From Alkalispirochaeta sp. (GTDB lineage Bacteria; Spirochaetota; Spirochaetia; DSM-27196; Alkalispirochaetaceae), in the NCBI GenBank assembly GCA_965601925.1, contig OZ271854.1:2176001-2240000 (forward strand): 64,000 bases of DNA. Direction: 5' to 3'. Below the pieces are notes generated by a model that did not search any database, was not told where the DNA came from, and saw only the letters and a program-made list of their open reading frames with translations. Numbering within the stretch: position 1 is the stretch's first letter; each line of letters starts with the position of its first letter. Shown one piece after another: positions 4,144-23,783 of the stretch. Both the position numbers and the translations under genes were made by a program.

Positions 4144-5103
4144 TTATAGCGAACGAAGGTCCAGCACCAGCTTTCCCACGTGATGGCCGACCACCCGTTC
4201 GTGAGCCGAGGCGGCTTCAGATCCTCGCACGACCGCACTTACATGCGGCTTCACGCCGTGCCGTTCAATCGTGTCGAACAGGCGTTCGGTAATCTCCCTG
4301 TTGGGTTCCCCGTAGTAGGGGGTGCACGTAATATCCTCAGGTACCACGGGCGTAGGAGTCACTCCCGACGGGAAAGTCACAACTCCGCCGGCTTTCGTCA
4401 ACCGACATACCTCATTCGCCCGCGAGCCTCCGGCTGTCAGTAGCACGTTGCCGAGTTTGCCACTTTCGGCTGCAAGCAGCGACGCAAAATCCGTTTCGTC
4501 TCGTCCGTCAAACACCGAGTTACACCCGAGTCGTCGCACCAACTCGACCCCGTCGGGCCCCGATGCCACTGCATTGACCTCGGCTCCGATGGCGTTTGCA
4601 AGTTGTACCGCCACGTGTCCAACTCCGCCGGAGGCCCCGAACACGCACAAAGAGTCGTTCGAGCGGAGACCTAGAACATCTGCGAGCCCACGCAGGGCGG
4701 TGATACCGACACCAAGGACGGCGCTTGCTTCAACCATCGAGTATCCCGCCGGAACTGGGGCGACCGTCTCCTCGCCGACGGCCACGTATTCGGCGTAGAA
4801 GCCGCCTTTTGGATTGAGAAAGCCCGATGCCATGACGCGGTCGCCTCGCGCGAATTGTGTCACGGCGTCGCCGACGGCCACGATTTCTCCGGCTCCCTCG
4901 GATCCCAAGACATAGGGGAAGGTCGGAGCGATGCCGAGCATCTCGGCGTATCCGCCTTGACGCTCGAACACGTCCCACGAACCGACACCGGCGTACTCGA
5001 TACGAATCAGAACTTCGTTGCTCGCAATGTCGGGAACCGGAACCGATCCGATAGAAAGCTCCGACTCGTCACCGAAACGCTCAATCACAACCGCTTTCAT
5101 CAT
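4144..5103 (-). CDS. NADP-dependent quinone oxidoreductase (MDR superfamily)
   Basis: MKAVVIERFG, FPYVLGSEGAG, GFYAEY, GASGGVG, HVGKLVL. Confidence 0.92.
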   Translation of the reverse strand: MMKAVVIERFGDESELSIGSVPVPDIASNEVLIRIEYAGVGSWDVFERQGGYAEMLGIAPTFPYVLGSEGAGEIVAVGDAVTQFARGDRVMASGFLNPKGGFYAEYVAVGEETVAPVPAGYSMVEASAVLGVGITALRGLADVLGLRSNDSLCVFGASGGVGHVAVQLANAIGAEVNAVASGPDGVELVRRLGCNSVFDGRDETDFASLLAAESGKLGNVLLTAGGSRANEVCRLTKAGGVVTFPSGVTPTPVVPEDITCTPYYGEPNREITERLFDTIERHGVKPHVSAVVRGSEAASAHERVVGHHVGKLVLDLRSL

Positions 5104-5177
5104 TTTCACAGGCTTCCTCCCATCACTACGGCCCCCCGGCCGCACCTTGCGATGGGTCAGGCTACCACGACGAAGTG

Positions 5178-5534
5178 TCAGGTCTTGTCAGCAGCCGTTC
5201 GCACCCCGGTCCGCCTCGCGAGCAGCTTTTCTCGTCGGTTCCATCGTTCGAACAGTGCGGTGTGCGAAATCGGCGTTCGCGACCGATCGAGAGACCAATC
5301 CAATATCCGATCGCTTCGAAAGTGGCGAAAGTCCGAACGCATTTCGCACCACGCTGCGACCAGACGCGCGGTCGTGAAGTATCCGATCGCTATCGGCCAT
5401 ATCGTGCGATTACTCTCCGTCCCGCTCACCTTTCGGTATCGTATGCGGACCTTCCTCCCGTCTCGGATTGAGTCGCGTAAGCATTTGAGAAGTTTATCGT
5501 CACCTTTCTGCGTTTGTTTGGGGCCCCAATACAA
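5178..5534 (-). pseudogene. WYL-domain fragment of YafY-like regulator (HTH missing)
   Basis: IRY....RTIWPIAIGY....LVAWCEMRSDFRHFRSDRI; no intact N-terminus. Confidence 0.75.
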
Positions 5535-5647
5535 GACCGCAAGCCCGTGACAATCGTTCCGTCGTGCTCGAAACGGTTGTCGATACCTTATCTATCGCGG
5601 TCCTCGCGGAGGCGCTTAACGCGCGATCCCGTTTGCAGCCGTCCGCC

Positions 5648-5724
5648 ATATAACAATCGCATCACCTACGCCCTCGCAGGAACGGAGTGACGAAAAGGCG
5701 ACTGATGCATGCGCCATGTTATGT
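5648..5724 (-). repeat. attC site, short family
   Basis: ATATAAC-aatcg-CATCAC...ATGCATG-cgccat-GTTATGT with an extra G in the minus-strand L''. Confidence 0.85.
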
Positions 5725-5814
5725 GGCGATCGATGAATACATCTCCTCATCTGAAGTAACCATGTTCTTTTTCCGGTCTTATGACATGTGAGCACGGCGG
5801 TCTCTGTTGCGACC

Positions 5815-6957: not shown

Positions 6958-7758
6958 CTAGACCACTGCTTGAGTGAGTCCGTCCTCAAAGCTTCGCCAG
7001 ATTTCTTCCGGCGTGTGATTGCCAAGCGAGCTGTGTGGCCGGTACCGATTGTACTCATCGCGCCACAAAGCCAGTTTCTCCTGAGCGTCCCTCACGCCCA
7101 GGAACAGGTTCTCGTTGAGGAACTCGTCGCGTAGCTTTCCGTTGAAGCTCTCGACAGAGGAGTTCTCGATCGGCTTGCCCGGCGTGATCAGACACTGCTG
7201 AATGCCGCGCTGGATCGTCCACGCGATCATGGCCCGGGACGTGAACTCCGGCCCGTTATCACTCTTCAAACATTCCGGCTCACCGTGCATGATCGTCGAT
7301 TGCTCCAACGCCCGGATGACATCAGCGCTCGAACATGAACGAGCAATTCGTGCTGTGATCAGATACCGTGTGTACTCGTCCAACACGACCAGACACTTCA
7401 ACGACCGTCCGGATTCAGTCGTGTCGAAAACGAAATCCAATCCCCAGATCTGATTGGGCCGCATCGCTGCACTGGCCCTATTGCGCTGCACGATGAGCTT
7501 CTTCCGGCGTCGTGAGCGGAGCATCAACTGTTCCTCGCGATAGATCCGGTACACTTGCTTGTGATTCGCTTCACTATGGTCTCGCCGCAGTAACACGTGG
7601 ATCCGACGATACCCGAACCGCTTGTGCCTCTCGGCCAGTTCCTTGATGCGCGCCCGAATCCGAAGATCGTTCGGTTTCTTTGCCTCATACCGACATGTCG
7701 ATCGATGCAGCGACGCCAGTTCGCACGCTCGTCGCTCACTGACCCCATGGTGTTTCAA
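6958..7758 (-). CDS. IS3 transposase OrfB (DDE)
   Basis: WGLDF...SDNGPEF...ESFNGKLRDE...RPHSSLG. Confidence 0.95.
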   Translation of the reverse strand: MKHHGVSERRACELASLHRSTCRYEAKKPNDLRIRARIKELAERHKRFGYRRIHVLLRRDHSEANHKQVYRIYREEQLMLRSRRRKKLIVQRNRASAAMRPNQIWGLDFVFDTTESGRSLKCLVVLDEYTRYLITARIARSCSSADVIRALEQSTIMHGEPECLKSDNGPEFTSRAMIAWTIQRGIQQCLITPGKPIENSSVESFNGKLRDEFLNENLFLGVRDAQEKLALWRDEYNRYRPHSSLGNHTPEEIWRSFEDGLTQAVV

Positions 7759-7793: not shown

Positions 7794-8057
7794 TCAGTTT
7801 TTTGACAGCACCTCCTTCATCGCGTCGATCTCAAGCGCCTGGTTGGCGACCAGCCTTTTCAGTCTGGTGTTCTCGTCTTCCAGTTCTTTCAGTCGCCGCG
7901 CCTCGCTGGTGGTCATTCCGCCATAGCGAGATTTCCACCGGTACAACGTATTCTCCGCAAACCCGTACTTCCGACAGATCTCCTTCGCCGGAACACCGGA
8001 CTCGGCTTCCCCCAAGATCGCAATGATCTTCTCGACCGAATACTGCCCCTTCTTCAT
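7794..8057 (-). CDS. IS3 transposase OrfA
   Basis: HTH ICRKYG..ENTLYRWKSRYGG; LKELEDENTRLKRLVA zipper. Confidence 0.95.
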   Translation of the reverse strand: MKKGQYSVEKIIAILGEAESGVPAKEICRKYGFAENTLYRWKSRYGGMTTSEARRLKELEDENTRLKRLVANQALEIDAMKEVLSKN

Positions 8058-8129
8058 AATGTCTCTCCCTCCTGTTATATCCGGGAAAGACCCACCTTCC
8101 TGCTGGACCAGTTTTCAGGGAGCAGGTCA

Positions 8130-8280
8130 GAGGTGCGACACGAATCCTCTTTTTCATGTGTTAAGGTCGAACGAAGTGAGCCCGAAGGGCTTGGCCTTTA
8201 CACATGAAAACGAGGGCGTACAATGAAAAAACTGCGGGAGGACCTTTCGGTTTGGGCGATTATGCGAAGTAGGCTGTTCT
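8130..8280. promoter_or_regulatory. Conserved hairpin/promoter element, copy 1 (cut by IS3 on the left)
   Basis: Stem 8146-8215, inner agcccGAAgggct, TTTACA(8197)-16-TACAAT(8219); homologous to copies at 11210 and 22821. Confidence 0.75.
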
Positions 8281-8290
8281 GGTATATCGC

Positions 8291-8602
8291 CTACATCGCC
8301 CGTTGTTCCGGGAGTTTCCCAATGATCTTGCGAACTTCGTCGGTCTCAACGAGTTGATCCGTCACATATCGGTGGACGATTGAACTGATGAGCGTTTGAT
8401 AGGGGATTCCTTCCTTGACCGCCTTTTTTTTCGTCAATTGCAGATCCTCTTCCGAAATTCGCAAGCTAATAGTCTGCGTCTTTCGCGCCCGATCGAGAAT
8501 GGCTTCAATCCGTTCGCGTTCTTCACCAACGACACTTTCCATCTGATCGATGGAATCTTCGATTTCTTGTTCTTCAGGCGTCAGGTCAAATATGTTCATC
8601 AC
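8291..8602 (-). CDS. CopG/RHH antitoxin (BrnA-like)
   Basis: KTQTISLRISEEDL...GIPYQTLISSIVHRY; overlaps toxin stop. Confidence 0.85.
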   Translation of the reverse strand: MMNIFDLTPEEQEIEDSIDQMESVVGEERERIEAILDRARKTQTISLRISEEDLQLTKKKAVKEGIPYQTLISSIVHRYVTDQLVETDEVRKIIGKLPEQRAM

Positions 8603-8862
8603 GAGCCTCCATATTGTTTGTGGTATTTCCGGCTTGGGAATGCCGTTTTCAGGACGACAGCTTCATCGTCATCGACGACAAATGGAACAATCCAGGTGTA
8701 ATCACGCATTCGAAGCACGAAGTATCGTTGTCCCGGCCGGGTCGGATTTTTGATGATATCGACATATCGCTTTTCCATGATGATGCCGGCAATTTCTTCA
8801 AATGAGACGCCGCGAGTTTGCTTGAGTACCTCATTTTTGTCCTCGTCCCAGATGATTTTCAT
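8599..8862 (-). CDS. brnT: BrnT-family toxin
   Basis: IWDEDKNEVLKQTRGVSFEEI...VPFV...LKTAFPSRK. Confidence 0.85.
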   Translation of the reverse strand: MKIIWDEDKNEVLKQTRGVSFEEIAGIIMEKRYVDIIKNPTRPGQRYFVLRMRDYTWIVPFVVDDDEAVVLKTAFPSRKYHKQYGGS

Positions 8863-9012
8863 TCGGTATCATGATACATCCAGCGTATATACATTGTAAA
8901 CAATCGCATCGATCAATGTGTTACGAACGTTCTCCGGGATGCGTGTGCTTTTGCATTTTGATCTGGTAGAGGCTATTTCTTGGTGATTTGCGCTTAGGCT
9001 CCGCCGGGCGCA

Positions 9013-9134: not shown

Positions 9135-10796
9135 GAGACTGTCGCACAACGCAGTCGTGGTCTGCTAGCATCGTGCCTGGGAGGAGCCAATGCCGAACTA
9201 CCGAGGAAACGAGGGGCAGGATCTCATGATTCCGGTGTGCCTGGATGATCAGCTGGTGCCGGGTACCATCGAACACGCCATCACCTGGATCGTCGACCAC
9301 GAGATCGATACGTCGGTGTTCGATGCAGCCTATCACAACGACCACGGCGGTCGCCCGGCCTGTGATCCGGCCGCGCTGGTGAAGATCATCTTGTTCGCCT
9401 ACTCCCGGGGCATCCTCTCCTCACGGAAGATCGAGGAAGCCTGCCGGACCAACATCGTGTTCATGGCCCTCAGTGGTGATATCCGGCCCGACCACGCCAC
9501 GATCGCCCGGTTCGTTACCGGCCATCCCGCGGCGGTTCGTCGTGTGTTCCGGGATGTGCTGATGATTGCGGCACAGGGCGATCTGATCGGTGGGGACGTG
9601 TTTGCACTGGACGGCTGCAAGATCAGCTCGAACGCCGCCCGAGAGCACGCGGGGACGCGACGGGAACTGGAGAAGAAGAGAGCGAAGCTTGAAGCACGTC
9701 TTGAGGCGATACTGCTCACTCATCGCGGCGCAGATGAGGCATGCACCTCCGATAACGACGATCAACAGGGCAGACCCGGTTCAGGGACAGCTGATCGCTA
9801 CCGGGCGCAGATCGACCGCATCAAAGGATTCCTCGACGCCCATCCACCCCGCACCGGCACCAGCGGACGCGAGGTGAAATCCAACATCACCGACAATCAG
9901 AGTGCCACACTGAAAACCGGGAGTGGCTACATCCAGGGCTATAACGCGCTGGCGATGGTGGATGCGAAGCACCAGATCGTGCTACACGCTGAACCGGTCG
10001 GTCAGATCCATGAGGCACCGCTGCTGCCACGGATGGTGCGCCGGTCACTGCATACACTGCGCAGGTTCGCACATCCCCAGGCCTGCACACCGACCATCCT
10101 CGCTGATACCAACTATTTCACCGAATCCAACGCCCGGTTCCTGATCGACTCTGATCTCGACGGCTATATCCCCGACCATCAGTTCCGGAATCGGGACATG
10201 CGATTCGCGGATCGGAGTCGATCGCGCCGGGCGGCACACCGGCGCTTCACCCAAGCCGATTTCCTCTACCAGAGCGACACCGACAGCTATCGTTGTCCGG
10301 CCGGCAAGACGTTGCGACGGCGCACCCGGGAGGTGGTTGCCGGGCGTCGTGGTACGCGCTATGAAGCGAAGCAATCAGACTGCAGTGCATGCGATCTCAC
10401 CTCCCGCTGTCTGATCCGTACTGCAACCCGGCGTAGACTCTTCCGCGGTGACGGTCCAGCCGGGACCTATGCCCAACAGATGCGTGATCGGATCGACACC
10501 GAACGGGGTCGACGGATGTACGCCAGACGCATGGGTATCGTGGAGCCGGTCTTTGCGAACATCACCGCCACCAAGGGCATGCGACGATTCACGCTCCGAG
10601 GCCGGGCGAAGGTCCGCATTCAATGGCTCCTGTACACGCTGGTGCACAACATCGAAAAGATCGCCACCACCGGGCTGATTCATCGGTTAGTCGGAGTTTG
10701 ATCCGGGTGGGTGGCGGGTTGAAGAATGCCTGGCCACGATCACTGGCCGTGAACTACTCGCTCCGCGTGGGTTCCCACGCGTTGTGCGACAGCCTC
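9135..10796 (+). mobile_element. IS1182-family element, copy 1 (1662 bp)
   Basis: IRs GAGACTGTCGCACAACGC / GCGTTGTGCGACAGCCTC (17/18); flanking GTT duplication. Confidence 0.95.
9190..10701 (+). CDS. IS1182-family DDE transposase
   Basis: SSRKIEEAC, PDHATIARF, LDGCKI, QGYN, CPAG, VEPVFANI. Confidence 0.95.
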   Translation: MPNYRGNEGQDLMIPVCLDDQLVPGTIEHAITWIVDHEIDTSVFDAAYHNDHGGRPACDPAALVKIILFAYSRGILSSRKIEEACRTNIVFMALSGDIRPDHATIARFVTGHPAAVRRVFRDVLMIAAQGDLIGGDVFALDGCKISSNAAREHAGTRRELEKKRAKLEARLEAILLTHRGADEACTSDNDDQQGRPGSGTADRYRAQIDRIKGFLDAHPPRTGTSGREVKSNITDNQSATLKTGSGYIQGYNALAMVDAKHQIVLHAEPVGQIHEAPLLPRMVRRSLHTLRRFAHPQACTPTILADTNYFTESNARFLIDSDLDGYIPDHQFRNRDMRFADRSRSRRAAHRRFTQADFLYQSDTDSYRCPAGKTLRRRTREVVAGRRGTRYEAKQSDCSACDLTSRCLIRTATRRRLFRGDGPAGTYAQQMRDRIDTERGRRMYARRMGIVEPVFANITATKGMRRFTLRGRAKVRIQWLLYTLVHNIEKIATTGLIHRLVGV

Positions 10797-10850
10797 GTTA
10801 CATTGCGACCTGCTTACCAGTATACGAGGAGATTTCCTGTTCTTCTTCTC

Positions 10851-10895
10851 TTTTTCACCGAGTGGCTGAAGCACCACGGTCAACCACCCGGTAAT
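10851..10895. repeat. Conserved hairpin downstream of the 88-aa ORF (copy A)
   Basis: accgagtggctg...caaccacccggt, shared with 22466-22510. Confidence 0.65.
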
Positions 10896-10916
10896 GATTA
10901 TTGGAATGGGGCCTTT

Positions 10917-11183
10917 CTATGAGGCCTTTTCTTGGCGGTGCGTCTGCTTGCCGGCGCGCGCCGCCACTTTGAAGATACATCCGTCGCACTGACCCTTTGT
11001 GCTTTTGCACCTGCAAGCGACGCATACGTCATAGAGATCATAATCATCAATCGCATCGAGGATGAGGCGATTCAGTGTCCTTGTCATTGGCTCATTCTTG
11101 AACCACGCCATTCGCCTGAGAGCAAACACCGCATCGCGGCTCACCTTGGGGACATACGTACCGGCAGTTTTTGTTGTGTGCAT
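10917..11183 (-). CDS. 88-aa hypothetical RHH-like protein with C-terminal Cys cluster (copy A)
   Basis: GGAGG RBS before ATG 11183; YVPKVSRDAVFALRRMAW...PMTRTL; CxxCxC...CxxC; close paralogue at 22529. Confidence 0.8.
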   Translation of the reverse strand: MHTTKTAGTYVPKVSRDAVFALRRMAWFKNEPMTRTLNRLILDAIDDYDLYDVCVACRCKSTKGQCDGCIFKVAARAGKQTHRQEKAS

Positions 11184-11209
11184 TTTCTGCACCTCCATAA
11201 TGAGATGTA

Positions 11210-11385
11210 TGCGAGACAACTCTCGCACCGGAGGTGCGACACGAATCCTCGTTTTCCTGTGTCAAGGTCGAACGCAGAGAGCCCGAAGGGCTTGGCCTTT
11301 ACACAGGGAAACGAGGACGTAGAATGAAAAAACTGCGGGAGGAAATCCTGGTTTAGGCAATTACGCGAAATAGGCCGATTCGGTT
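11210..11385. promoter_or_regulatory. Conserved hairpin/promoter element, copy 2
   Basis: Stem 11247-11316 with compensatory change; TGTCAA in left arm; TTTACA(11298)-16-TAGAAT(11320) in right arm. Confidence 0.8.
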
Positions 11386-11413
11386 TTTGCTTGTGCCGCC
11401 CATCGATGCGTTA

Positions 11414-11812
11414 CTATTTCGCCCAGTTTTCGATATCCAGGCCGTTTATTCGCTCGAAGTGTTTTTGATTGTTCGTTACCAATATCAAATTGTGAGTGAG
11501 CGCCGTTGCAGCGATCAGCAGATCCATATCGGCGACAATATTTCCTTGCTTCTCTAATGACGTTTTGATTTCTCCGAATGTCTCAACCACGGCGGGGGTG
11601 ATGTCTATGATCGGAAACAATTCAGCAATCCGGTATGCTCGAGCAAGATTCTTTTCGACTGCCTTCGATTTCTTAGCTCCGTACACAAGTTCGCCATACG
11701 TGATGACCGATAACGATTTTGGCGAGTTCCGGTATTCATGGAAATTCTGCTTCACTCGTTCATCGCCTTTCAGGCTATAAATGACGATGTCGGTATCGAT
11801 CAAATAGTTCAT
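11414..11812 (-). CDS. vapC: VapC PIN-domain toxin
   Basis: YLIDTDIVI...GELVYG...DLLIAATAL...VTNNQKHFERI. Confidence 0.95.
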   Translation of the reverse strand: MNYLIDTDIVIYSLKGDERVKQNFHEYRNSPKSLSVITYGELVYGAKKSKAVEKNLARAYRIAELFPIIDITPAVVETFGEIKTSLEKQGNIVADMDLLIAATALTHNLILVTNNQKHFERINGLDIENWAK

Positions 11813-12074
11813 TTGTATTTGTAAATCGCGCTGATTCAGTTCGTCCGTTTCGAATGGATTTCACAATATCTTCGGCCGATCGATCATCTTCCCAACTTCC
11901 AGATAGTTTCAGAAATTCATCAGTTGGATTGATATCGAAGGCGCGAGGGAGGGACAGATATTTTTCCAGGATATGGACGACTTCTTGACTGATTGAACGT
12001 CGTTCTTTTGATGCGCGAACGCGCAACGATTCATAGAGTTTTTCGTCGATATCACGTACTTGCAAATTGGCCAT
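11775..12074 (-). CDS. FitA/Arc-like RHH antitoxin
   Basis: MANLQVRDIDEKLYESLRVRASKERRSISQEV; upstream of vapC. Confidence 0.88.
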   Translation of the reverse strand: MANLQVRDIDEKLYESLRVRASKERRSISQEVVHILEKYLSLPRAFDINPTDEFLKLSGSWEDDRSAEDIVKSIRNGRTESARFTNTNELFDRYRHRHL

Positions 12075-12362: not shown

Positions 12363-14024
12363 GAGACTGTCGCACAACGCAGTCGTGGTCTGCTAGCATC
12401 GTGCCTGGGAGGAGCCAATGCCGAACTACCGAGGAAACGAGGGGCAGGATCTCATGATTCCGGTGTGCCTGGATGATCAGCTGGTGCCGGGTACCATCGA
12501 ACACGCCATCACCTGGATCGTCGACCACGAGATCGATACGTCGGTGTTCGATGCAGCCTATCACAACGACCACGGCGGTCGCCCGGCCTGTGATCCGGCC
12601 GCGCTGGTGAAGATCATCTTGTTCGCCTACTCCCGGGGCATCCTCTCCTCACGGAAGATCGAGGAAGCCTGCCGGACCAACATCGTGTTCATGGCCCTCA
12701 GTGGTGATATCCGGCCCGACCACGCCACGATCGCCCGGTTCGTTACCGGCCATCCCGCGGCGGTTCGTCGTGTGTTCCGGGATGTGCTGATGATTGCGGC
12801 ACAGGGCGATCTGATCGGTGGGGACGTGTTTGCACTGGACGGCTGCAAGATCAGCTCGAACGCCGCCCGAGAGCACGCGGGGACGCGACGGGAACTGGAG
12901 AAGAAGAGAGCGAAGCTTGAAGCACGTCTTGAGGCGATACTGCTCACTCATCGCGGCGCAGATGAGGCATGCACCTCCGATAACGACGATCAACAGGGCA
13001 GACCCGGTTCAGGGACAGCTGATCGCTACCGGGCGCAGATCGACCGCATCAAAGGATTCCTCGACGCCCATCCACCCCGCACCGGCACCAGCGGACGCGA
13101 GGTGAAATCCAACATCACCGACAATCAGAGTGCCACACTGAAAACCGGGAGTGGCTACATCCAGGGCTATAACGCGCTGGCGATGGTGGATGCGAAGCAC
13201 CAGATCGTGCTACACGCTGAACCGGTCGGTCAGATCCATGAGGCACCGCTGCTGCCACGGATGGTGCGCCGGTCACTGCATACACTGCGCAGGTTCGCAC
13301 ATCCCCAGGCCTGCACACCGACCATCCTCGCTGATACCAACTATTTCACCGAATCCAACGCCCGGTTCCTGATCGACTCTGATCTCGACGGCTATATCCC
13401 CGACCATCAGTTCCGGAATCGGGACATGCGATTCGCGGATCGGAGTCGATCGCGCCGGGCGGCACACCGGCGCTTCACCCAAGCCGATTTCCTCTACCAG
13501 AGCGACACCGACAGCTATCGTTGTCCGGCCGGCAAGACGTTGCGACGGCGCACCCGGGAGGTGGTTGCCGGGCGTCGTGGTACGCGCTATGAAGCGAAGC
13601 AATCAGACTGCAGTGCATGCGATCTCACCTCCCGCTGTCTGATCCGTACTGCAACCCGGCGTAGACTCTTCCGCGGTGACGGTCCAGCCGGGACCTATGC
13701 CCAACAGATGCGTGATCGGATCGACACCGAACGGGGTCGACGGATGTACGCCAGACGCATGGGTATCGTGGAGCCGGTCTTTGCGAACATCACCGCCACC
13801 AAGGGCATGCGACGATTCACGCTCCGAGGCCGGGCGAAGGTCCGCATTCAATGGCTCCTGTACACGCTGGTGCACAACATCGAAAAGATCGCCACCACCG
13901 GGCTGATTCATCGGTTAGTCGGAGTTTGATCCGGGTGGGTGGCGGGTTGAAGAATGCCTGGCCACGATCACTGGCCGTGAACTACTCGCTCCGCGTGGGT
14001 TCCCACGCGTTGTGCGACAGCCTC
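12363..14024 (+). mobile_element. IS1182-family element, copy 2
   Basis: Same IRs, length and GTT duplication as copy 1. Confidence 0.95.
12418..13929 (+). CDS. IS1182-family transposase
   Basis: Protein identical to 9190-10701. Confidence 0.95.
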   Translation: MPNYRGNEGQDLMIPVCLDDQLVPGTIEHAITWIVDHEIDTSVFDAAYHNDHGGRPACDPAALVKIILFAYSRGILSSRKIEEACRTNIVFMALSGDIRPDHATIARFVTGHPAAVRRVFRDVLMIAAQGDLIGGDVFALDGCKISSNAAREHAGTRRELEKKRAKLEARLEAILLTHRGADEACTSDNDDQQGRPGSGTADRYRAQIDRIKGFLDAHPPRTGTSGREVKSNITDNQSATLKTGSGYIQGYNALAMVDAKHQIVLHAEPVGQIHEAPLLPRMVRRSLHTLRRFAHPQACTPTILADTNYFTESNARFLIDSDLDGYIPDHQFRNRDMRFADRSRSRRAAHRRFTQADFLYQSDTDSYRCPAGKTLRRRTREVVAGRRGTRYEAKQSDCSACDLTSRCLIRTATRRRLFRGDGPAGTYAQQMRDRIDTERGRRMYARRMGIVEPVFANITATKGMRRFTLRGRAKVRIQWLLYTLVHNIEKIATTGLIHRLVGV

Positions 14025-14039
14025 GTTATATGGCGGGCA

Positions 14040-16031
14040 TTAGGCGCCTTGATACCATTCTGACGGTATTAACTTGCGTCCGGCACGCCATTCCTCAACC
14101 TCATGTATATTCCCTATTTCGCCGTATATGCTTTTATCTGCGTGATCCAGAATGATGGCCTGCCATTCGCCATCACTTTCTGCCACGGCATCGGCAAGTG
14201 TACGGAAAATTTGCCTTACAGCTTGCTCATCATCTTCGTCATCGTATCGAGAATCCTCTTCTTCTACTTCCTCACCGCTCTTTACCTTAGGGAAATAGAC
14301 CTGACTTGGCTGATCAAATACGGCGAAACTCGGTACTACCGACCAGCTTTGCTCTAAAAAAAATTTTTGAAGCGCGCATATCAGAGCTAAATGGAAGGAA
14401 ACCCAGTTTGATGCGCTGCCAATTTCTGACAAATAATGCCAGTTTCTATCGGTACTTATTACCTGCATATTCAAGTCTTTAACGTTCAATGACGGTGGTG
14501 TTTCGCGGTATTTTGCTTCTACGTCTAAAGTTTGAAGATAGTTCAAAATGTATTGCGAAATACGCATTTTAGCCGCAGAGAGACGCCTTTCCACCGCTTT
14601 AGGATCAATAACTTGCAAAAGATGCTCTCGGCGGGCTACAAGAGTTGCAATACGTTCTTCGAGCTCGCCACCGGCTTGAAGCTTTTCAAATGTTTCAACC
14701 GAGGCTTTCAGATGGCCCAAGAACAAAAAAAGAGTTTTTGCCTTTTGAAACTCTTCCTTTGTTTTTTGGTCACGAAGAAACAGCGTGTCATACCGATCTC
14801 TTAGAATTCTTTGCTCCTCGATTAAGCTTTCAAGTTCTTTATTTAAACGTTCTTCTTCTCTGTCGAATGATGTCGGGATTTCCTCAACGCGCTTCGACTC
14901 GGCTTCATATTCCTCGAACACCGAAGCTATTCTTGACATTTCTTCACTACTTCTTGGATGATCATCGCTTCCACATAGAGGGCAGACCTTGGCATCAGAG
15001 GCCAGATCTGTTAGCCAGTTGGAAATATGCAACCTGTCAGAACGTCTTTTTACAGTCACGCTATACTCTGTTAGACTGGTCTTAAGCTGCTTCACGTCGT
15101 CGAGTCGTTTACGTAGCTTTGCCAATCGCTGGCTTAAATCATCCTCTTCCTTGTCTAATTCAATTAGCGCCTGACTCGCTTTTTGAAAATTACTTAACTC
15201 TGCAATTGAATAATTCGGGGCCTCTTGGACTAGTTGTCTTGCGATTAGGATTAGTTCGTCTGGGTCCGAAACATCTCGTGGGTCTCGATCGAGCAAACCA
15301 TATTGTTGGGCTATTCTGAGTTGCCCCTGTAGATTATTCGACCACGATTTTGAGTGAGCTTTCGCTCGTTCAAAATCGCGTTCAAGTGCTTTTAGACGCT
15401 GTTCGAGCTCCTGCAGTTCCTGTCTAGCTTTCAGAACCTCTATATTCTCTGCGCCCAGTATGAAAGGAAGCCAGTTGCGAAGTCGTTCGCGATGTTCATG
15501 AGCATGCGTTTTATAGAATAGGATGTTCTGATTTGCGACTATGTCTTGGCTTTGAAAGACCAACGCAACCAAATCTCGGAAGCCCAAACGTGCTTGATAG
15601 GCTTTTCTTTCGAACTCGCCCTCGAGAGAAAAATATGGCACATTGGAAATTGTGTTTAAGATGTTTTTGACCCCTTCGGGGTTCTCGTTGGCCGTTTCAA
15701 TGACGGGGGGAACTGAAATTTCCTTTGCGCGGGTCACATAGAAATTTGAAGACACCTTATTGTCTTTCGGCACGGCACGAGCGATAAGAATTTGCTCAGA
15801 TTGTGTTTGAAATGCGACACCGTACCAGGAGGCATAGTCGCGTATGACATCAATAGGCACATTACATTCTGTTGAAGCAAGACAGTAATCAATCAGTGGT
15901 ATTATTGCAGATTTTCCTGTTCGAGATGCGCCGGTTATCACGTTCAGCTTTCCTGGTACAAATTCAACAACTCTTGGTGGGAATGTTGAATCGATTGGCC
16001 AAATTAAAACTTTTAACAGTTGGAATTGCAT
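14040..16031 (-). CDS. lmuB: Lamassu LmuB-like SMC/ABC ATPase (DUF3732)
   Basis: Walker A GASRTGKS, coiled coil with CPLC hook, GSASNW signature, FDQPSQVYFP; ATG coupled to upstream TAA. Confidence 0.88.
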   Translation of the reverse strand: MQFQLLKVLIWPIDSTFPPRVVEFVPGKLNVITGASRTGKSAIIPLIDYCLASTECNVPIDVIRDYASWYGVAFQTQSEQILIARAVPKDNKVSSNFYVTRAKEISVPPVIETANENPEGVKNILNTISNVPYFSLEGEFERKAYQARLGFRDLVALVFQSQDIVANQNILFYKTHAHEHRERLRNWLPFILGAENIEVLKARQELQELEQRLKALERDFERAKAHSKSWSNNLQGQLRIAQQYGLLDRDPRDVSDPDELILIARQLVQEAPNYSIAELSNFQKASQALIELDKEEDDLSQRLAKLRKRLDDVKQLKTSLTEYSVTVKRRSDRLHISNWLTDLASDAKVCPLCGSDDHPRSSEEMSRIASVFEEYEAESKRVEEIPTSFDREEERLNKELESLIEEQRILRDRYDTLFLRDQKTKEEFQKAKTLFLFLGHLKASVETFEKLQAGGELEERIATLVARREHLLQVIDPKAVERRLSAAKMRISQYILNYLQTLDVEAKYRETPPSLNVKDLNMQVISTDRNWHYLSEIGSASNWVSFHLALICALQKFFLEQSWSVVPSFAVFDQPSQVYFPKVKSGEEVEEEDSRYDDEDDEQAVRQIFRTLADAVAESDGEWQAIILDHADKSIYGEIGNIHEVEEWRAGRKLIPSEWYQGA

Positions 16032-16534
16032 TACAAGACAACCTTCAGGTATTGTGCCGCCGATGAAACACTTATTTGGGAAAACCATTTGCCGAGAATT
16101 TGTGCTTTTTCCCCATTTTTCATATGCATTTCATTAATTAACCCTCTTTTTATATTCCCATATTCATGAATTCGTGGATAAATCTTTGCGGAATCTTTAT
16201 CCCAAACTATAAGCCCCGACTTTATTGCAATATCAATTGCCGAAATTGTTACGCTTCGCTTCTTTTTTATTCTTTCTTGTAGAGAAACCAGCAAATCGAT
16301 TTCTTTCTTCTGCTCGAAACCTCTTACGTAAGACTGAAGGCTTTTCCGGCGATTATTAACAGAAAGCAAGAAATGATCGGTTGTGAGCAGTGGATACGCC
16401 ATGAAGTGTAATAATGCCACAGGAGCGTCTCCAGTTGAATGATGACTAACGAAACCAACAGTGAAGTTCCAGAGTTGGTATGCTCCTATCACTGGAGAAT
16501 TCCAGTTTCTAACTTCATCTACTAAGCTTTCCAT
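16031..16534 (-). CDS. lmuC: ABC three-component middle component (LmuC-like)
   Basis: NSPVIGAYQLWNF...AQILGKWF; lies between effector and ATPase. Confidence 0.8.
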   Translation of the reverse strand: MESLVDEVRNWNSPVIGAYQLWNFTVGFVSHHSTGDAPVALLHFMAYPLLTTDHFLLSVNNRRKSLQSYVRGFEQKKEIDLLVSLQERIKKKRSVTISAIDIAIKSGLIVWDKDSAKIYPRIHEYGNIKRGLINEMHMKNGEKAQILGKWFSQISVSSAAQYLKVVL

Positions 16535-16546
16535 GTTTTGCTCTCT

Positions 16547-17692
16547 CTATGCTTTTTGAATCAAGTTTTGCCAGCGTGGATGCCAACCCAGGAGTTCGTT
16601 ATCTGCTAATGTATGATACGTCCCCGCAATGGTTGAGCTTGGAGGAGGCATGTTCCTTATTGTTGCTTGATGAGTTGAGCAATCAAGTAGCAACAGTTGT
16701 CCTCGGACTTCTTCGGGTTTGTCTTGTTGAGTTAGAAAAATTCTCTTTTTTGAATGGACCCAGAACTCCGATAACTTGTTCTGAAAATCCACAGCGGAGT
16801 CCTCGTCTATGATTTCATTTTCGATCCACTTTTGACGGTTGACTTTCGCCTTTAGAAACGCAGTGACCGACTCAACAATCTCTTCTTCTGTGCAGTCAAT
16901 TAGTTCTAACTGTTTAATATATGAAGGGCGTAGCTTTAATTGCATTTTTTTCATTTTATCGTCGATAGGATCTATCAAAGTGAAATCTATCAACTCTCTT
17001 TGTCGCACACGATCAAAAAGAACGGATTTCTCTTTGTAAAAATCGTCCCAAGTAATGCAAGCTATTTGGTTTTCAGCGATCATTTCGGTCAGTGTATTGT
17101 GCAACCAGCCAGTAAGATTTTGAACAAGGAAAGGGATTTGGGTTTCAGGTACAAGTATTCGCTTTAGTTCGTCACGTACTTCATCTAAGCCCGCACCGTC
17201 TCCTATTATTAAACTAAATTTCTTAATTATTTCAATAAATAAATTTTCATTATTCAATAAATAGCTATAATATTTCCAAATATTGTGTTCATTATTAATA
17301 TCAGAGAAGCCTTTCTTGATTTCTGAAATAACTTGACGAGCGTCATCGGTATCTTTCGCAGAATTTAGTCTATTAACAAGGGCTGGCTTACCATGATTGT
17401 TGGCGTAGAGAATGAAGCATGTGGTTTCCGTGTCAATATTGCTTTCTTGAACAAGAATTGCCCAGTTATAAAATGTTTTCCAAAGATTTGTAGATCTATC
17501 TGTTAAAGGATTTCCCAGGACTGAGGACTTATCTTCCTCAGAAACCATATCTCCTTCACGAGAAGTTACAGATACATCTCCATTGAACTCAACATATACA
17601 GTTCCACCGGGGCCAGTACGCAATAAGTGAAAAAGTGCTCGAGGAATTTGGATAGAATAGCCCAGAAATTGACCAGATGCATTCGAACTCAT
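16547..17692 (-). CDS. lmuA: Lamassu effector LmuA-like (Cap4-like nuclease plus C-terminal domain)
   Basis: ASGQFLGYSIQ..RAL, E...D...EEDK, NPLTDRSTNLWKT, GTYHTLAD...GWHPRW. Confidence 0.8.
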   Translation of the reverse strand: MSSNASGQFLGYSIQIPRALFHLLRTGPGGTVYVEFNGDVSVTSREGDMVSEEDKSSVLGNPLTDRSTNLWKTFYNWAILVQESNIDTETTCFILYANNHGKPALVNRLNSAKDTDDARQVISEIKKGFSDINNEHNIWKYYSYLLNNENLFIEIIKKFSLIIGDGAGLDEVRDELKRILVPETQIPFLVQNLTGWLHNTLTEMIAENQIACITWDDFYKEKSVLFDRVRQRELIDFTLIDPIDDKMKKMQLKLRPSYIKQLELIDCTEEEIVESVTAFLKAKVNRQKWIENEIIDEDSAVDFQNKLSEFWVHSKKRIFLTQQDKPEEVRGQLLLLDCSTHQATIRNMPPPSSTIAGTYHTLADNELLGWHPRWQNLIQKA

Positions 17693-22306: not shown

Positions 22307-22340
22307 GCAAAAATTATGGATTGATTTGTCGGGATAAGCA

Positions 22341-22366
22341 ACATAATACAGACACCACCTGCGGCC
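22341..22366 (-). repeat. Degenerate attC half-site
   Basis: aagcaacataaT-acaga-caccacctgcgg resembles aagcaacataaC-aaccg-catcacctgcgc at 2558. Confidence 0.45.
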
Positions 22367-22465
22367 CGAAGCTGCTCTGCTAATGAAGGAGTTGGTAAGG
22401 GTTTAGCGCATACAAAACCGCCGGCTGATAAAAAATCATACTATGTCTTGGTTTTCGAAATAGCG

Positions 22466-22510: not shown

Positions 22511-22528
22511 AACTAATGGGACTAAGCC

Positions 22529-22795
22529 TTACGAGGCTTTTTCTTGGCGGCATGTTTGCTTGTGGGCGCGTGCCGCCACTTTGAAAATGCATCCATCGCA
22601 TGGACCCTTCGGACTTTTGCACCGACAGGCGGCGCAGACATCATAGAGGTCATAATCATCGATTGCATCGAGAATGAGGCGATCCAATGTCCTGGTCATT
22701 GGCTCATTCTTGAACCACGCCATTCGCCTGAGAGCAAACACCGCATCGCGGCTCACCTTGGGGACATACGTACCAGCGCCAATCTTTTTGTGCAT
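22529..22795 (-). CDS. 88-aa hypothetical RHH-like protein with Cys cluster (copy B)
   Basis: Paralogue of 10917-11183: same length, RBS and conserved Cys. Confidence 0.8.
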   Translation of the reverse strand: MHKKIGAGTYVPKVSRDAVFALRRMAWFKNEPMTRTLDRLILDAIDDYDLYDVCAACRCKSPKGPCDGCIFKVAARAHKQTCRQEKAS

Positions 22796-22820: not shown

Positions 22821-22982
22821 TGCGGGAAAGCCATGCTTGGTCCCGCACCGGAGGTGCGCGACGCTCCTCGTTTTCATGTGTCAAGGTCGAACGAAGTGAG
22901 CCCGAAGGGCTTGGCCTTTACACATGAAAAAGAGGACGTACCATGAGAAGACTGCGGGAGCAGGTTAGGTTGAGGCAATTTC
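22821..22982. promoter_or_regulatory. Conserved hairpin/promoter element, copy 3
   Basis: Same stem and inner hairpins; TTTACA(22917)-16-TACCAT(22939). Confidence 0.8.
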
Positions 22983-22988
22983 GGGGTG

Positions 22989-23309
22989 TTACCGGAGGTT
23001 TCTTCGGAGCAATATGTCTTCGATGTTTCGCCGCCCATCAATTACGGCAAGGATCAATACTCGATCGGATTCTTGCGTATAGAACACGCGCCATGGCGCG
23101 ACGATGATCTCTCGATATTTGGTGATGTTCTGCCGTTCGAGTTCCGGAATGACCCGTCCGGTTTCCGGAAATTCTGATAGTCGCGATACTTCGGAATCAA
23201 TCTTTTCTGCGATGTTCTTCGCAATAGTCGCTGAAGAATGACTGATAATCCAATCAATGATTTCTCGGAAGTCTATCGCCGCGCTCGCGGCCCATGTTAT
23301 TTGTGCCAT
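22989..23309 (-). CDS. RelE/ParE-family toxin
   Basis: ITWAASAAIDFREI...FPETGRVIPE...YREIIVAPWRVFY...AVIDGRR. Confidence 0.92.
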   Translation of the reverse strand: MAQITWAASAAIDFREIIDWIISHSSATIAKNIAEKIDSEVSRLSEFPETGRVIPELERQNITKYREIIVAPWRVFYTQESDRVLILAVIDGRRNIEDILLRRNLR

Positions 23310-23662: not shown

Positions 23663-23783
23663 ACATAACACCGAGCTGACCTGCAAGATGCGGCCCGGAG
23701 CCGCAGGCGGAGGGATTGGCGCGACTTTTGCGCATGCAAAAGTCGTGACAAAGCAGATTGACTGGTCCAGCGTTATGTTATGA
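23663..23783 (-). repeat. attC site, long family, intact and IS-free (121 bp)
   Basis: Minus strand TCATAAC-ataac-GCTGGACC...GGTCAGC-tcggt-GTTATGT. Confidence 0.92.

What the first reader, a model, noticed from the sequence alone, without database searches (positions are those of the whole stretch)
11210..11345. Thrice-repeated hairpin that looks like a single-stranded-DNA promoter on the attC bottom strand
SEEN: the element occurs at 8130-8241, 11210-11342 and 22821-22960. It forms a ~21-bp stem with a compensatory change (tttcAtgtg/cacaTgaaa versus tttcCtgtg/cacaGggaa). The + strand carries in-register c(GNA)g triloops: gccc-GAA-gggc, c-GAA/GCA-g and cgcacc-GGA-ggtgcg. The right arm reads TTTACA-N16-TACAAT/TAGAAT/TACCAT. 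The left arm holds TGTCAA (complement of TTGACA, copies 2 and 3) opposite the -35 and is unpaired opposite the -10. KNOWN: c(GNA)g loops are exceptionally stable in DNA; Frpo/sso signals are hairpins that make a promoter on ssDNA; IntI recombines the folded attC bottom strand, which here is the + strand. INFERENCE: when the + strand is single-stranded (for example an excised cassette), RNA polymerase would copy it leftwards, giving sense mRNA for the adjacent 88-aa ORF and/or a primer for second-strand synthesis. I know of no description of such an element in integron cassettes.
Basis: partly seen in the sequence, partly recalled or inferred. Interest (0 to 1): 0.92.

Follow-up and report, generated by a model that had tools for sequence, protein, structure and literature searches.

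The report
Single-strand promoter-like hairpin in integron cassettes
A conserved DNA hairpin in front of a small gene in an integron cassette array belongs to a hairpin family that also sits in front of the first-entering genes of conjugative plasmids, and it likely works as a promoter that is read only while that DNA strand is single-stranded.

Summary
The hairpin occurs at 8130-8241, 11210-11345 and 22821-22960, with a fourth copy elsewhere in the genome. All copies lie on the same strand, directly 5' of a minus-strand 88-aa ORF; copy 1 lost its ORF to an IS3 insertion.

Diverged copies keep the stem through compensatory changes. The N of two c(GNA)g loops varies while G and A stay fixed.

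A 42-nt apical core is shared with hairpins in conjugative plasmids. There they stand upstream of ssb, radC and methyltransferase operons in leading-like regions. The core is also shared with a rolling-circle replicon, an integrase/excisionase island and two IS110 elements.

Across 13 family members the outer stems covary. G.T wobbles fall on the strand equivalent to the window's + strand (28 cells) rather than the other strand (7). That strand is the template of the neighbouring genes, the inferred attC bottom strand and the lagging-strand template.

The only sigma70-like site nearby is TTTACA-N16-TAGAAT in the 3' arm of the + strand. No Rfam family matches.

I read it as a likely Frpo-like single-stranded-DNA promoter or primer site (confidence about 0.5). 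No transcript data exist. It is a new variant of a known kind.

The parts
11242..11320 (+). Main hairpin P1, copy 2. The 21-position stem is 11247-11267 with 11296-11316, plus an ACG/CGT extension. It folds better on the + strand.
11262..11301 (+). Conserved apical cap: TCAAGG..c(GNA)g..GCCC-GAA-GGGC..CCTTTA. It is shared at about 90% identity with hairpins of plasmids and other mobile elements.
11298..11303 (+). -35-like TTTACA in the 3' arm, paired with TGTCAA at 11260-11265. No variant was listed in the metagenome copies.
11320..11325 (+). -10-like TAGAAT (TACAAT in copies 1 and 4, TACCAT in copy 3). T1, A2, A5 and T6 are invariant. It is unpaired apart from T1.
11333..11342 (+). Conserved CTGCGGGAGG tail (the last base is C in copies 3 and 4). 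Contigs of other copies diverge at 11339-11343, which marks the right boundary of the module.
11224..11238 (+). Mini-hairpin cgcacc-GGA-ggtgcg. Its complement, GCACCUCC, is the anti-Shine-Dalgarno of the minus-strand leader. The start predicted for a hairpin promoter lies at about 11226-11232 (inferred).
11211..11226 (.). Inner leader hairpin GCGAGA/TCTCGC. It is GCGGGA/TCCCGC in copies 3 and 4 and in most metagenome copies, a compensatory change (11214 A>G with 11223 T>C).
10917..11196 (-). 88-aa ORF (10917-11183) with its Shine-Dalgarno GGAGGTG (11190-11196). The protein has an RHH-like N-terminus and CxxC..CxxC motifs, and no Pfam family.
10851..10903 (.). Second inverted repeat (TACCGAGTGG..CCACCCGGTA) at the 3' end of the module. 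The left boundary of the module is about 10851-10857.
8130..8241 (+). Copy 1. The hairpin is 8146-8215, with TTTACA at 8197-8202 and TACAAT at 8219-8224. An IS3-family element (orfA 7794-8057, orfB 6958-7758) cuts off the leader and ORF at 8129.
22821..22960 (+). Copy 3. The hairpin is 22866-22935, with TTTACA at 22917-22922 and TACCAT at 22939-22944. It is followed on the minus strand by the 87-aa ORF 22529-22792.
23663..23783 (.). A canonical attC of the array (ACATAAC...GTTATGT). It bounds the cassette that holds Phd/ParE, copy 3 and the ORF.

Best explanation
The hairpin is a strand-specific DNA structure of the + strand that likely acts as a Frpo-like single-stranded-DNA promoter, and possibly as a primer site. 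It is predicted to start minus-sense RNA just upstream of the ribosome-binding site of the 88-aa ORF.

Shown:
- The hairpin is conserved and covaries.
- Its wobble pairs and GNA loops are on the + strand.
- Its 3' arm carries the only sigma70-like -35/-10 pair near the ORF.
- The same capped hairpin family stands upstream of ssb, radC and methyltransferase operons on the template strand of leading-like regions in conjugative plasmids.
- It also occurs on the coding strand of a rolling-circle replicon.

Inferred:
- When the + strand is single-stranded, the stem rebuilds a duplex -35 and spacer with an open -10. This could happen on the lagging-strand template at replication, in an attC bottom strand during cassette recombination, or in transferred DNA.
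- RNA polymerase then copies the + strand leftwards.
- The RNA would begin at about 11226-11232, past the anti-Shine-Dalgarno. It would therefore be translatable, whereas read-through RNA from the upstream toxin-antitoxin genes would keep the ribosome-binding site sequestered.
- The module probably descends from a leading-region unit made of a promoter and a small gene.
For: 1. Structure under selection. There are two-sided changes at 11257/11306 and 11214/11223, and T.G to C-G at 11268/11295, among the 4 genomic copies and dozens of metagenome contigs. Across 13 family hairpins, 84.3% of cells are paired against 69.4% in shuffles (0 of 500 reach it). The covariation score is 0.402 against 0.166, and 0.10-0.14 when partners are slid. 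14 outer-stem pairs change on both sides.

2. Strand.
- G.T occurs in 28 cells (13 column pairs) on the + equivalent strand, against A.C in 7 cells (3 column pairs).
- 8 of 8 hairpins fold better on that strand with both RNA and DNA parameters.
- One-sided C>T changes at 11256, 11269 and 11282 all give T.G on the + strand.
- The covariance model scores 84-87 bits on + against 30-33 on the minus strand.

3. GNA loops. The N of the second loop is A, C, G or T across copies and relatives, with G and A fixed. The apical loop is GAA, GCA or GGA.

4. Promoter. The + strand site 11298-11325 scores 10 of 12, and no site is found on the minus strand. The -10 varies only at positions 3 and 4. It is unpaired in the DNA fold.

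5. Family context.
- The core is found in 8 plasmid records. The long form is found in 14 records, 12 of them typed conjugative.
- pMSMB0852 has 3 copies on one strand, next to an ssb, DNA-methyltransferase, DUF3560 and kleA run that points at the T4CP/MobF side.
- pAOVO01 has 3 hairpins directly upstream of radC, a methyltransferase operon and ssb. All these genes point to the gap beside TraD/TrwC.
- In 9 of 10 annotated plasmid hairpins, the next gene on that side is read from the hairpin strand as template.
- L011/L012 is a Rep_trans replicon whose genes lie on the hairpin strand, as a single-strand origin would require.

6. Single-stranded exposure. dnaA and the skew minimum lie at 1.6 Mb and the skew maximum at 3.8 Mb, so the + strand of both arrays is the lagging-strand template. 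intI at 3,568,638 (+) diverges from the minus-strand cassettes, so + is the bottom strand by the usual integron layout.

7. Leader logic. The Shine-Dalgarno has an unpaired probability of 0.0 in read-through RNA, against 0.24-0.33 in RNA starting at 11232-11226.

8. A remote homologue of the 88-aa protein is fused to a RadC JAB domain, and radC is a gene of those leading regions.
Against: - No transcript, 5' end or priming data exist. No RNA run was listed.
- The hairpin is small. Its DNA folding energy is -25 kcal/mol for 86 nt and -41 for 177 nt. PMC12672017 mined plasmid single-stranded-DNA promoters with a threshold below -75 kcal/mol (passage read).
- A -10 at the right spacing is not evident in several relatives: pMSMB0852, L011 and the Methylocystis plasmid. 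In the plasmid members, GTCAAGG/CCTTGAC is palindromic, so TTGAC lies in the 3' arm of both strands.
- No member of this family has been tested, and its core motifs are absent from the Frpo/ssi sequences of PMC11541004.
- One metagenome copy has the apical loop TGC, which is GNA on the other strand.
- Position 11308 also occurs as C, giving a T.C mismatch.
- One ORF copy (L007) persists without the hairpin.
- In two metagenome loci the hairpin follows an IS110-family transposase gene. That is not a context known for single-stranded DNA.
- The 13 aligned hairpins are not independent: 4 come from this genome and 3 from one plasmid. The relatives were found through a 20-mer, which fixes part of the likeness.
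- ATG at 11324 with GAGG 7 nt upstream could explain part of the conservation of the -10.
Confidence: 0.5

Rival explanations
1. The hairpin folds on single-stranded + strand DNA but does something other than promote mRNA synthesis. Options are a primase- or polymerase-dependent priming signal for the complementary strand (ssi/sso-like), a recognition site for a recombinase or transposase, or an inert relic of captured leading-region DNA.
For: - The same strand asymmetry and GNA loops apply.
- The rolling-circle replicon context fits a single-strand origin, where no gene needs expressing.
- A conserved A-run followed by CTG lies 3' of the hairpin. A CTG start is what DnaG-type signals use; this is recalled, not tested.
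- The hairpin is associated with IS110 in L016/L017.
- Plasmid copy 2 of pMSMB0852 and the pIPM3H3 copy precede a dnaG-like primase gene.
Against: - The -35/-10 pair, with variation confined to positions 3 and 4 of the -10, is not needed for primase signals.
- Position directly 5' of operons in 9 of 10 annotated plasmid cases suggests expression.
- Compensatory changes among many diverged cassette copies argue against an inert relic.
- There are no attC R boxes and no CS-6 TAGCGT.
Confidence: 0.2
2. The hairpin is a cis-regulatory RNA in the 5' leader of the minus-strand mRNA for the 88-aa ORF. It would be made by read-through from the upstream toxin-antitoxin genes, and would act as a processing, stability or translational-control element.
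For: - It lies between the toxin stop codon and the ORF with no attC or terminator.
- The minus RNA folds with z = -4.7.
- The leader has an anti-Shine-Dalgarno helix GCACCUCC:GGAGGUGC, and an inner hairpin with a compensatory change.
- In L016/L017 the hairpin is in the sense orientation behind a transposase gene.
Against: - Wobble pairs would be A.C mismatches on this strand: 28 against 7 cells.
- The minus strand folds worse in 8 of 8 hairpins.
- UNC loops have no known stability (recalled).
- There is no Rfam match.
- In the rolling-circle replicon the hairpin strand is the opposite one relative to the genes.
- The anti-SD part of the leader is compatible with the main explanation, so it does not decide between the two.
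Confidence: 0.15
3. TTTACA-N16-TAnnAT is an ordinary double-stranded promoter firing rightwards. It would give an antisense RNA against the 3' end of the upstream toxin genes, or insulate the ORF. The inverted repeat would be an operator or a cruciform.
For: - The match is 10 of 12 on the + strand.
- CTGCGGGAGG is conserved just after the expected start.
- A weak terminator-like site lies at 11372-11386 on the + strand in copy 2.
- The 88-aa protein looks RHH-like and could bind an inverted repeat (lead only).
Against: - Sequence beyond 11343 is not conserved between copies, so there is no common antisense RNA.
- A duplex promoter does not need the 5' arm, the GNA loops or G.T asymmetry.
- In the plasmids such a promoter would fire away from ssb, radC and the methyltransferase operons, against the run of genes.
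Confidence: 0.1
4. The hairpin is a dispersed palindromic repeat spread by mobile elements. It would have no function of its own in the cassette.
For: The 42-nt core turns up in unrelated mobile contexts. One ORF copy lives without it.
Against: - There are only 4 copies in 5.05 Mb, all in one orientation and all tied to the same ORF.
- Position in plasmids is non-random.
- Compensatory changes and strand asymmetry point to selection.
Confidence: 0.05

Closest known systems
Frpo/ssi single-stranded-DNA promoters of conjugative plasmid leading regions (F, ColIb-P9, pESBL classes 1-3)
   Same: - A stem-loop on the strand that is single-stranded.
- -35 and -10 rebuilt by the stem, with an open -10.
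- Placed 5' of genes for which that strand is the template.
- Relatives of this hairpin stand before ssb and methyltransferase genes, as Frpo does (PMC11541004 and PMC12672017, passages read).
   Different: - No sequence likeness to the listed Frpo/ssi elements; only motifs were checked.
- Far shorter and weaker than those stems.
- Capped by a conserved 42-nt three-way tip with two c(GNA)g loops.
- Sits in a chromosomal integron cassette, not beside an oriT.
- Untested.
Single-strand origins (sso) of rolling-circle plasmids and the minus-strand origin of filamentous phages
   Same: Orientation-dependent hairpins on the displaced strand that RNA polymerase reads as a promoter to make a primer (recalled knowledge). 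One relative lies in a Rep_trans replicon on the coding strand.
   Different: No CS-6 TAGCGT; RSB was not checked. Here a gene with a ribosome-binding site follows, so an mRNA rather than a short primer is expected.
Integron attC sites
   Same: A strand-specific hairpin that is functional on the bottom strand of a cassette array. It is exposed on the lagging-strand template.
   Different: No RYYYAAC/GTTRRRY boxes. It lies inside a cassette, between the toxin-antitoxin genes and the ORF, and not at a cassette boundary.
Translational leaders with an anti-Shine-Dalgarno helix
   Same: GCACCUCC pairs with GGAGGUGC in the minus RNA.
   Different: This covers only the part of the element next to the ORF. 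It does not explain the main hairpin, whose pairing favours the other strand.

Membership tests
Frpo/ssi-type single-stranded-DNA promoter | Large stem-loop predicted with DNA parameters on the strand that becomes single-stranded | tested here: inconclusive
   A hairpin is present with z = -6.0. Its energy is only -25 kcal/mol for 86 nt and -41 for 177 nt. This is weaker than the below -75 kcal/mol cut-off used in PMC12672017 (passage read). Plasmid relatives reach -92 to -131.
Frpo/ssi-type single-stranded-DNA promoter | -35 and -10 boxes rebuilt in the stem, with the -10 region imperfectly paired | tested here: met
   TTTACA-16-TAGAAT scores 10 of 12. The -35 pairs with TGTCAA, and the -10 is unpaired apart from T1. 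This is not evident in every relative.
Frpo/ssi-type single-stranded-DNA promoter | Lies 5' of genes for which the hairpin strand is the template | tested here: met
   Met in 3 of 3 intact window or genome copies with an ORF, and in 9 of 10 annotated plasmid hairpins.
Frpo/ssi-type single-stranded-DNA promoter | Sequence similarity to known Frpo/ssi elements | tested here: not met
   The core motifs CCCGAAGGG and CCCTTCGGG are absent from the supplementary Frpo/ssi table of PMC11541004. GCGAAGC occurs there only incidentally. No full alignment to those sequences was made.
Frpo/ssi-type single-stranded-DNA promoter | Transcription or priming on single-stranded but not duplex DNA | not testable with these tools
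   No RNA holder was listed. This needs in vitro transcription or a transfer-based reporter.
attC recombination site | R''/R' boxes RYYYAAC...GTTRRRY flanking an imperfect hairpin at a cassette boundary | tested here: not met
   There is no RYYYAAC in copies 1-3 and a single GTTRRRY at 22964. The element lies inside the cassette.
ssoA-type single-strand origin | Conserved CS-6 TAGCGT in the terminal loop (recalled definition) | tested here: not met
   TAGCGT is absent on either strand of copies 1-3.
Any Rfam RNA family | Match at the gathering score | tested here: not met
   0 matches in the whole window. At E up to 10 the only hit is a chance mir-351 match at 16.7 bits against a gathering score of 70.

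The most novel reading that the evidence does not exclude
Integron cassettes can carry their own single-stranded-DNA promoter. The cassette gene would be silent on duplex DNA, with its ribosome-binding site sequestered in read-through RNA. It would be switched on only when the attC bottom strand is single-stranded, at fork passage, cassette recombination or DNA transfer. The hairpin belongs to an undescribed, widespread class of GNA-capped single-strand signals. This class is shared by conjugative-plasmid leading regions, rolling-circle replicons, integrative islands and integron cassettes.
Probability: 0.4. Interest if true: 0.88.

Novelty: new variant of a known kind. Interest (0 to 1): 0.72.

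Why it matters
Cassettes are usually taken to be promoterless and read from Pc. How a cassette far from Pc, or a freshly excised one, is ever expressed remains an open point. A promoter that exists only on the folded bottom strand would tie cassette expression to the same single-stranded state that drives attC recombination.

It would also extend single-stranded-DNA promoters beyond enterobacterial IncF/IncI plasmids. They would become a sequence-defined class that can be searched for in Burkholderiales plasmids and other mobile elements. The 42-nt cap gives a handle for that search and for direct tests.

Tried and rejected
Searches that found nothing:
- Rfam at the gathering score and at loose thresholds.
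- Protein-guided scan of metagenome contigs: 291 pattern hits, 0 confirmed.
- The 20-mer in genome contigs: 2 loci, neither a member. L009 is coding sequence and L010 is another hairpin.
- Of the 8 metagenome loci, L014, L015 and L018 share only the 20-mer or part of the core. They were left out of all counts.
- Viral contigs pattern scan: 0.
- Phage records: 0.
- 400 other genomes of the same phylum: 0.
- blastn of the window element itself against plasmids: 0. Only the cap of L011 and the long pMSMB0852 hairpin found plasmids.
- tblastn of the 88-aa protein against plasmids: 0.
- PDB profile search: nothing below E = 0.98.
- Earlier findings of this scan: none.

Not obtainable:
- No RNA holder was listed for the stretch.
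- The fold comparison of the 88-aa model could not be run because the machine was busy.
- My crude attC finder recovered only one clear attC. The bottom-strand assignment therefore rests on ORF and intI orientation plus one hand-read bulge.

Ideas rejected:
- The hairpin as an insertion with a 9-bp target duplication. L007 lacks the hairpin between two ACCTCCGGT repeats, but the junction removes the ParE stop codon and the repeat is part of the conserved leader. A microhomology deletion is simpler.
- A + strand small ORF starting at the ATG of 11324 (MKKLRE...). Its length and sequence are not conserved (10 aa in copy 2).
- A group II intron or known RNA downstream of the L016/L017 hairpins. 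Only Acido-Lenti-1 and tRNA hits were found.

Left open:
- Whether the L016/L017 hairpin is part of an IS110 bridge/seek RNA.
Full report
**What is there**

The three copies are at the stated coordinates. The genome holding the window is one 5.05-Mb contig with 60% G+C. It has exactly four copies, all on the + strand: the three in the window and one at 3,557,485-3,557,604.

Each copy lies directly 5' of a minus-strand ORF of 87-88 aa that has a GGAGGTG ribosome-binding site. Copy 1 is the exception. There an IS3-family element ending at 8129 has replaced the leader and the ORF.

The conserved unit is larger than the hairpin. Contigs of other copies diverge from copy 2 at about 10851-10857 on the left and 11339-11343 on the right. 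The module is therefore about 490 bp: hairpin, leader, ORF and a second inverted repeat.

Upstream, in the sense of the ORF, are three different toxin-antitoxin pairs: BrnT/BrnA, a FitA-like RHH with a PIN toxin, and Phd/ParE. There is no room for an attC between the toxin stop codon and the module. For copy 3, the cassette bounded by the attC at 23663-23783 and the attC-like site near 22335-22455 holds Phd, ParE, the hairpin and the ORF together.

**The hairpin is real and selected**

The + strand DNA folds with z = -6.0 and the minus RNA with z = -4.7. None of 200 shuffles does as well in either case.

Among the four genomic copies, and among dozens of diverged copies in public coral-reef and marine metagenome contigs:
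- 11257/11306 changes on both sides (C-G in copy 2, A-T elsewhere).
- 11214/11223 in the small leader hairpin changes on both sides.
- 11268/11295 goes from T.G to C-G.

The stem is not perfect. 11263/11300 is always a mismatch. 11251/11312 is mispaired in three of the four genomic copies. 11308 occurs as G, A or C opposite T.

**Relatives**

A 20-mer from the tip found eight metagenome loci.
- Five of them share a 42-nt cap at about 90% identity with the window copies, but have quite different and much longer outer stems. These are L011 and L012 (identical copies 4,938 bp apart on one contig), L013, L016 and L017.
- Three (L014, L015, L018) share little more than the 20-mer and were set aside.

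Contexts of the five:
- L011/L012 is a small Rep_trans replicon with its genes on the hairpin strand.
- L013 has a tyrosine integrase upstream, and an AlpA-like HTH gene and an AAA_22 ATPase downstream.
- L016 and L017 have an IS110-family transposase gene upstream.

The cap of L011 then found eight plasmid records from Burkholderia, Caballeronia, Mycetohabitans, Janthinobacterium and Methylocystis. It found none in phages. The long hairpin of one of these plasmids found 14 plasmid records with 44 places, and 12 of the 14 are typed conjugative.

**Context in plasmids**

In Burkholderia savannae pMSMB0852, the three copies are all on one strand.
- One precedes a hypothetical gene and ssb. These are followed by a run of small genes and a DNA methyltransferase.
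- One precedes DUF3560 and kleA.
- The whole run points towards the side of the T4CP and MobF genes.

In Acidovorax pAOVO01, three hairpins stand directly upstream of radC, of a methyltransferase operon and of ssb. All genes from 33.5 to 46 kb point to the gap beside TraD and TrwC.

By physical reasoning, a transferred strand can serve as template only for genes that point to its 5' end at oriT. This is an inference, not a tool result. On that reasoning the hairpin strand in both plasmids is the template, T-strand-like strand.

Counting the annotated plasmid hairpins I examined, the next gene on that side is read from the hairpin strand in 9 of 10. The exception is copy 2 of pMSMB0852, where two small oppositely annotated ORFs precede a dnaG-like gene. 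Two Caballeronia records carried no annotation and could not be counted.

This is the setting in which single-stranded-DNA promoters are described. Frpo lies upstream of ssb. In pESBL and F, six leading-region operons are each preceded by a large stem-loop that rebuilds -35 and -10. These fall into three sequence classes and have 5' RACE support (PMC11541004 and PMC12672017; I read the passages found by term search, not the whole papers).

**Which strand folds**

I aligned 13 family hairpins: 4 from this genome, 4 from metagenomes and 5 from plasmids. I then counted a structure that I wrote from copy 2.
- 84.3% of cells pair, against 69.4% in shuffles (0 of 500 reach it).
- The covariation score is 0.402, against 0.166 in shuffles and 0.10-0.14 when the partners are slid.
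- 14 outer-stem pairs change on both sides.

The sequences are related and the structure was derived from one of them, so these figures overstate independence.

On that structure, G.T occurs in 28 cells at 13 column pairs on the strand equivalent to the window's + strand. A.C, which would be G.U on the other strand, occurs in 7 cells at 3 column pairs.

Further points in the same direction:
- All 8 hairpins that I folded on both strands fold better on the + equivalent strand, with RNA and with DNA parameters.
- The one-sided changes C>T at 11256, 11269 and 11282 in metagenome copies all give T.G on the + strand.
- The loops agree. The N of the second c(GNA)g is A, C, G or T across copies and relatives, while G, A and the closing C-G stay fixed. 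The apical loop is GAA, GCA or GGA.
- One contig has TGC instead, which is GNA on the other strand. This is the only exception I saw.

**Promoter-like features**

The mechanical scan of 10800-11900 lists one strong site, TTTACA-16-TAGAAT on the + strand at 11298-11325 (10 of 12). It lists none on the minus strand.
- The -35 lies in the 3' arm, paired with TGTCAA.
- The -10 starts at the base of the stem and is unpaired apart from its first T.
- Among copies, the -10 varies only at positions 3 and 4: TACAAT, TAGAAT, TACCAT.

In relatives a -10-like hexamer is sometimes present at an internal loop:
- L017: TTGACT-N19-TACAAT.
- L016: TTGACG-N16-CATACT.
- Mycetohabitans: TTGACC-N16-TACGGT.
- L013: TTGACG-N15-TACCCT.

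It is sometimes not evident, as in pMSMB0852, L011 and Methylocystis.

In the plasmid members the cap ends GTCAAGG/CCTTGAC are palindromic, so TTGAC by itself does not mark a strand.

**When the + strand is single-stranded**

dnaA (1,593,386-1,594,750) coincides with the minimum of cumulative GC skew, and the maximum is near 3.8 Mb. Both cassette arrays therefore lie on the replichore where the parental + strand is the lagging-strand template. This is an inference from skew.

The integron integrase is at 3,568,638-3,569,561 on the + strand (396.7 bits; cut-off 265). It diverges from minus-strand cassettes that include copy 4 and the hairpin-less copy. By the usual integron layout the + strand is then the attC bottom strand. 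One attC that I read by hand has its extra base in the 3' arm of the + strand, as bottom strands do (one site only). The window's own array has no integrase and is CALIN-like.

**A mechanism that fits the leader**

If the hairpin acts as a promoter on the + strand, the template runs leftwards from the 5' arm. The start, about 7 nt past the -10, falls opposite about 11226-11232. This is inferred by counting, give or take a few bases.

That position is just past GCACCUCC, which pairs with the ribosome-binding site in the minus RNA. The Shine-Dalgarno has an unpaired probability of 0.0 in RNAs that begin upstream (11345 or 11240). It is 0.24-0.33 in RNAs that begin at 11232-11226, and the same holds for copy 3.

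So read-through RNA from the toxin-antitoxin genes would be poorly translated, while hairpin-initiated RNA would be translated better. This is a prediction from folding only.

**The gene**

The 88-aa protein has no Pfam family.
- 17 close clusters are at 80-97% identity.
- 39 distant representatives share YTPxxS..LRRxAW..PMTKTL followed by CxxC...CxxC.
- The AlphaFold model (pLDDT 80.3) is helical.
- The nearest named Atlas clusters are ribbon-helix-helix proteins at 0.89-0.90, which is a lead only.
- One distant homologue is fused to a RadC JAB domain, and radC is one of the genes behind the plasmid hairpins.
- No homologue was found in the plasmid collection by tblastn.

**Points against, and open points**

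- Nothing here shows transcription or priming.
- The hairpin is far weaker than the plasmid stems: -25 kcal/mol against -92 to -131. It is also below the cut-off used to mine such promoters (PMC12672017 passage).
- No member of this family has been tested. Its core is not among the Frpo/ssi sequences listed by PMC11541004 (motif search only).
- A fifth ORF copy (L007) has lost the hairpin by a deletion between two ACCTCCGGT repeats. This also removes the ParE stop codon, so the ORF can persist without the hairpin.
- The IS110 context of L016/L017 is unexplained.
- Searches for 'single-stranded DNA promoter', Frpo or 'ssDNA promoter' together with integron or attC gave no paper whose title or abstract describes such an element in cassettes (listings only). 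Subscription journals are not covered.

**Verdict**

I put about 0.5 on a Frpo-like single-stranded-DNA promoter or primer signal, and 0.2 on another single-strand role. About 0.15 goes to a minus-strand RNA leader element, and the rest to an ordinary antisense promoter or a functionless repeat.

Noticed in passing
window 9190-10701, 12418-13929, 18017-19528 (+): Three near-identical copies of an IS with a 503-aa DDE transposase (DDE_Tnp_1_6, DUF772). Each is inserted in or beside an attC-like repeat of the array. This suggests an attC-targeting IS.
   Followed up: partly
window 14040-17692 (-) and 19625-22306 (-): The array carries an ABC-three-component (ABC-3C) set: a DUF3732 ATPase, MC3 and a CTD7 effector. 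It also carries an 893-aa AAA_21 ATPase. These look like defence genes within the cassette array.
   Followed up: partly
L007 (G000:C1:3563671-3563934 and upstream): A fifth copy of the 88-aa ORF lacks the hairpin. The deletion lies exactly between two 9-nt repeats ACCTCCGGT, and it fuses ParE's reading frame into the leader. A long hairpin flanked by direct repeats is a classic deletion hotspot (recalled).
   Followed up: yes
G000:C1:3568638-3569561 (+): The genome's integron integrase (TIGR02249, 396.7 bits) is 1.33 Mb from the window. The window's array has no integrase of its own. Both arrays have their inferred bottom strands on the lagging-strand template. As far as I recall, this is the opposite of what is reported for large sedentary integrons.
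   Followed up: partly
L016 1369-1700 and L017 1501-1900 (metagenome loci): Behind the IS110-family transposase gene and the long capped hairpin lies about 250 nt conserved between the two loci. Acido-Lenti-1 RNA hits are nearby. Whether this is a bridge/seek RNA region is open.
   Followed up: no
window 11324-11356 (+), 8223-, 22943-23107 (+): An ATG overlapping the -10-like hexamer, with GAGG 7 nt upstream, opens a + strand ORF starting MKKLRE or MRRLRE. Its length differs between copies (10 aa in copy 2, 54 aa in copy 3). Beyond the first 6-7 residues it is not conserved.
   Followed up: partly
window 10904-10935, 22515-22545; L003 1175-1200: A small hairpin overlaps the stop codon of the 88-aa ORF. 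It keeps pairing with different sequences: GGCCTCATAGAAAGGCC against AGCCTCGTAAGGCT. It has no U-tract.
   Followed up: no
plasmid loci L043 (pAOVO01) 4674-5771 and 8203-8968; L030 (pMSMB0852): Large unannotated gaps of 0.7-1.1 kb in leading-like regions of Burkholderiales MOBF plasmids are each filled by a hairpin of about 230-270 nt of this family. The outer stems are conserved between plasmids while the apical cap differs.
   Followed up: partly
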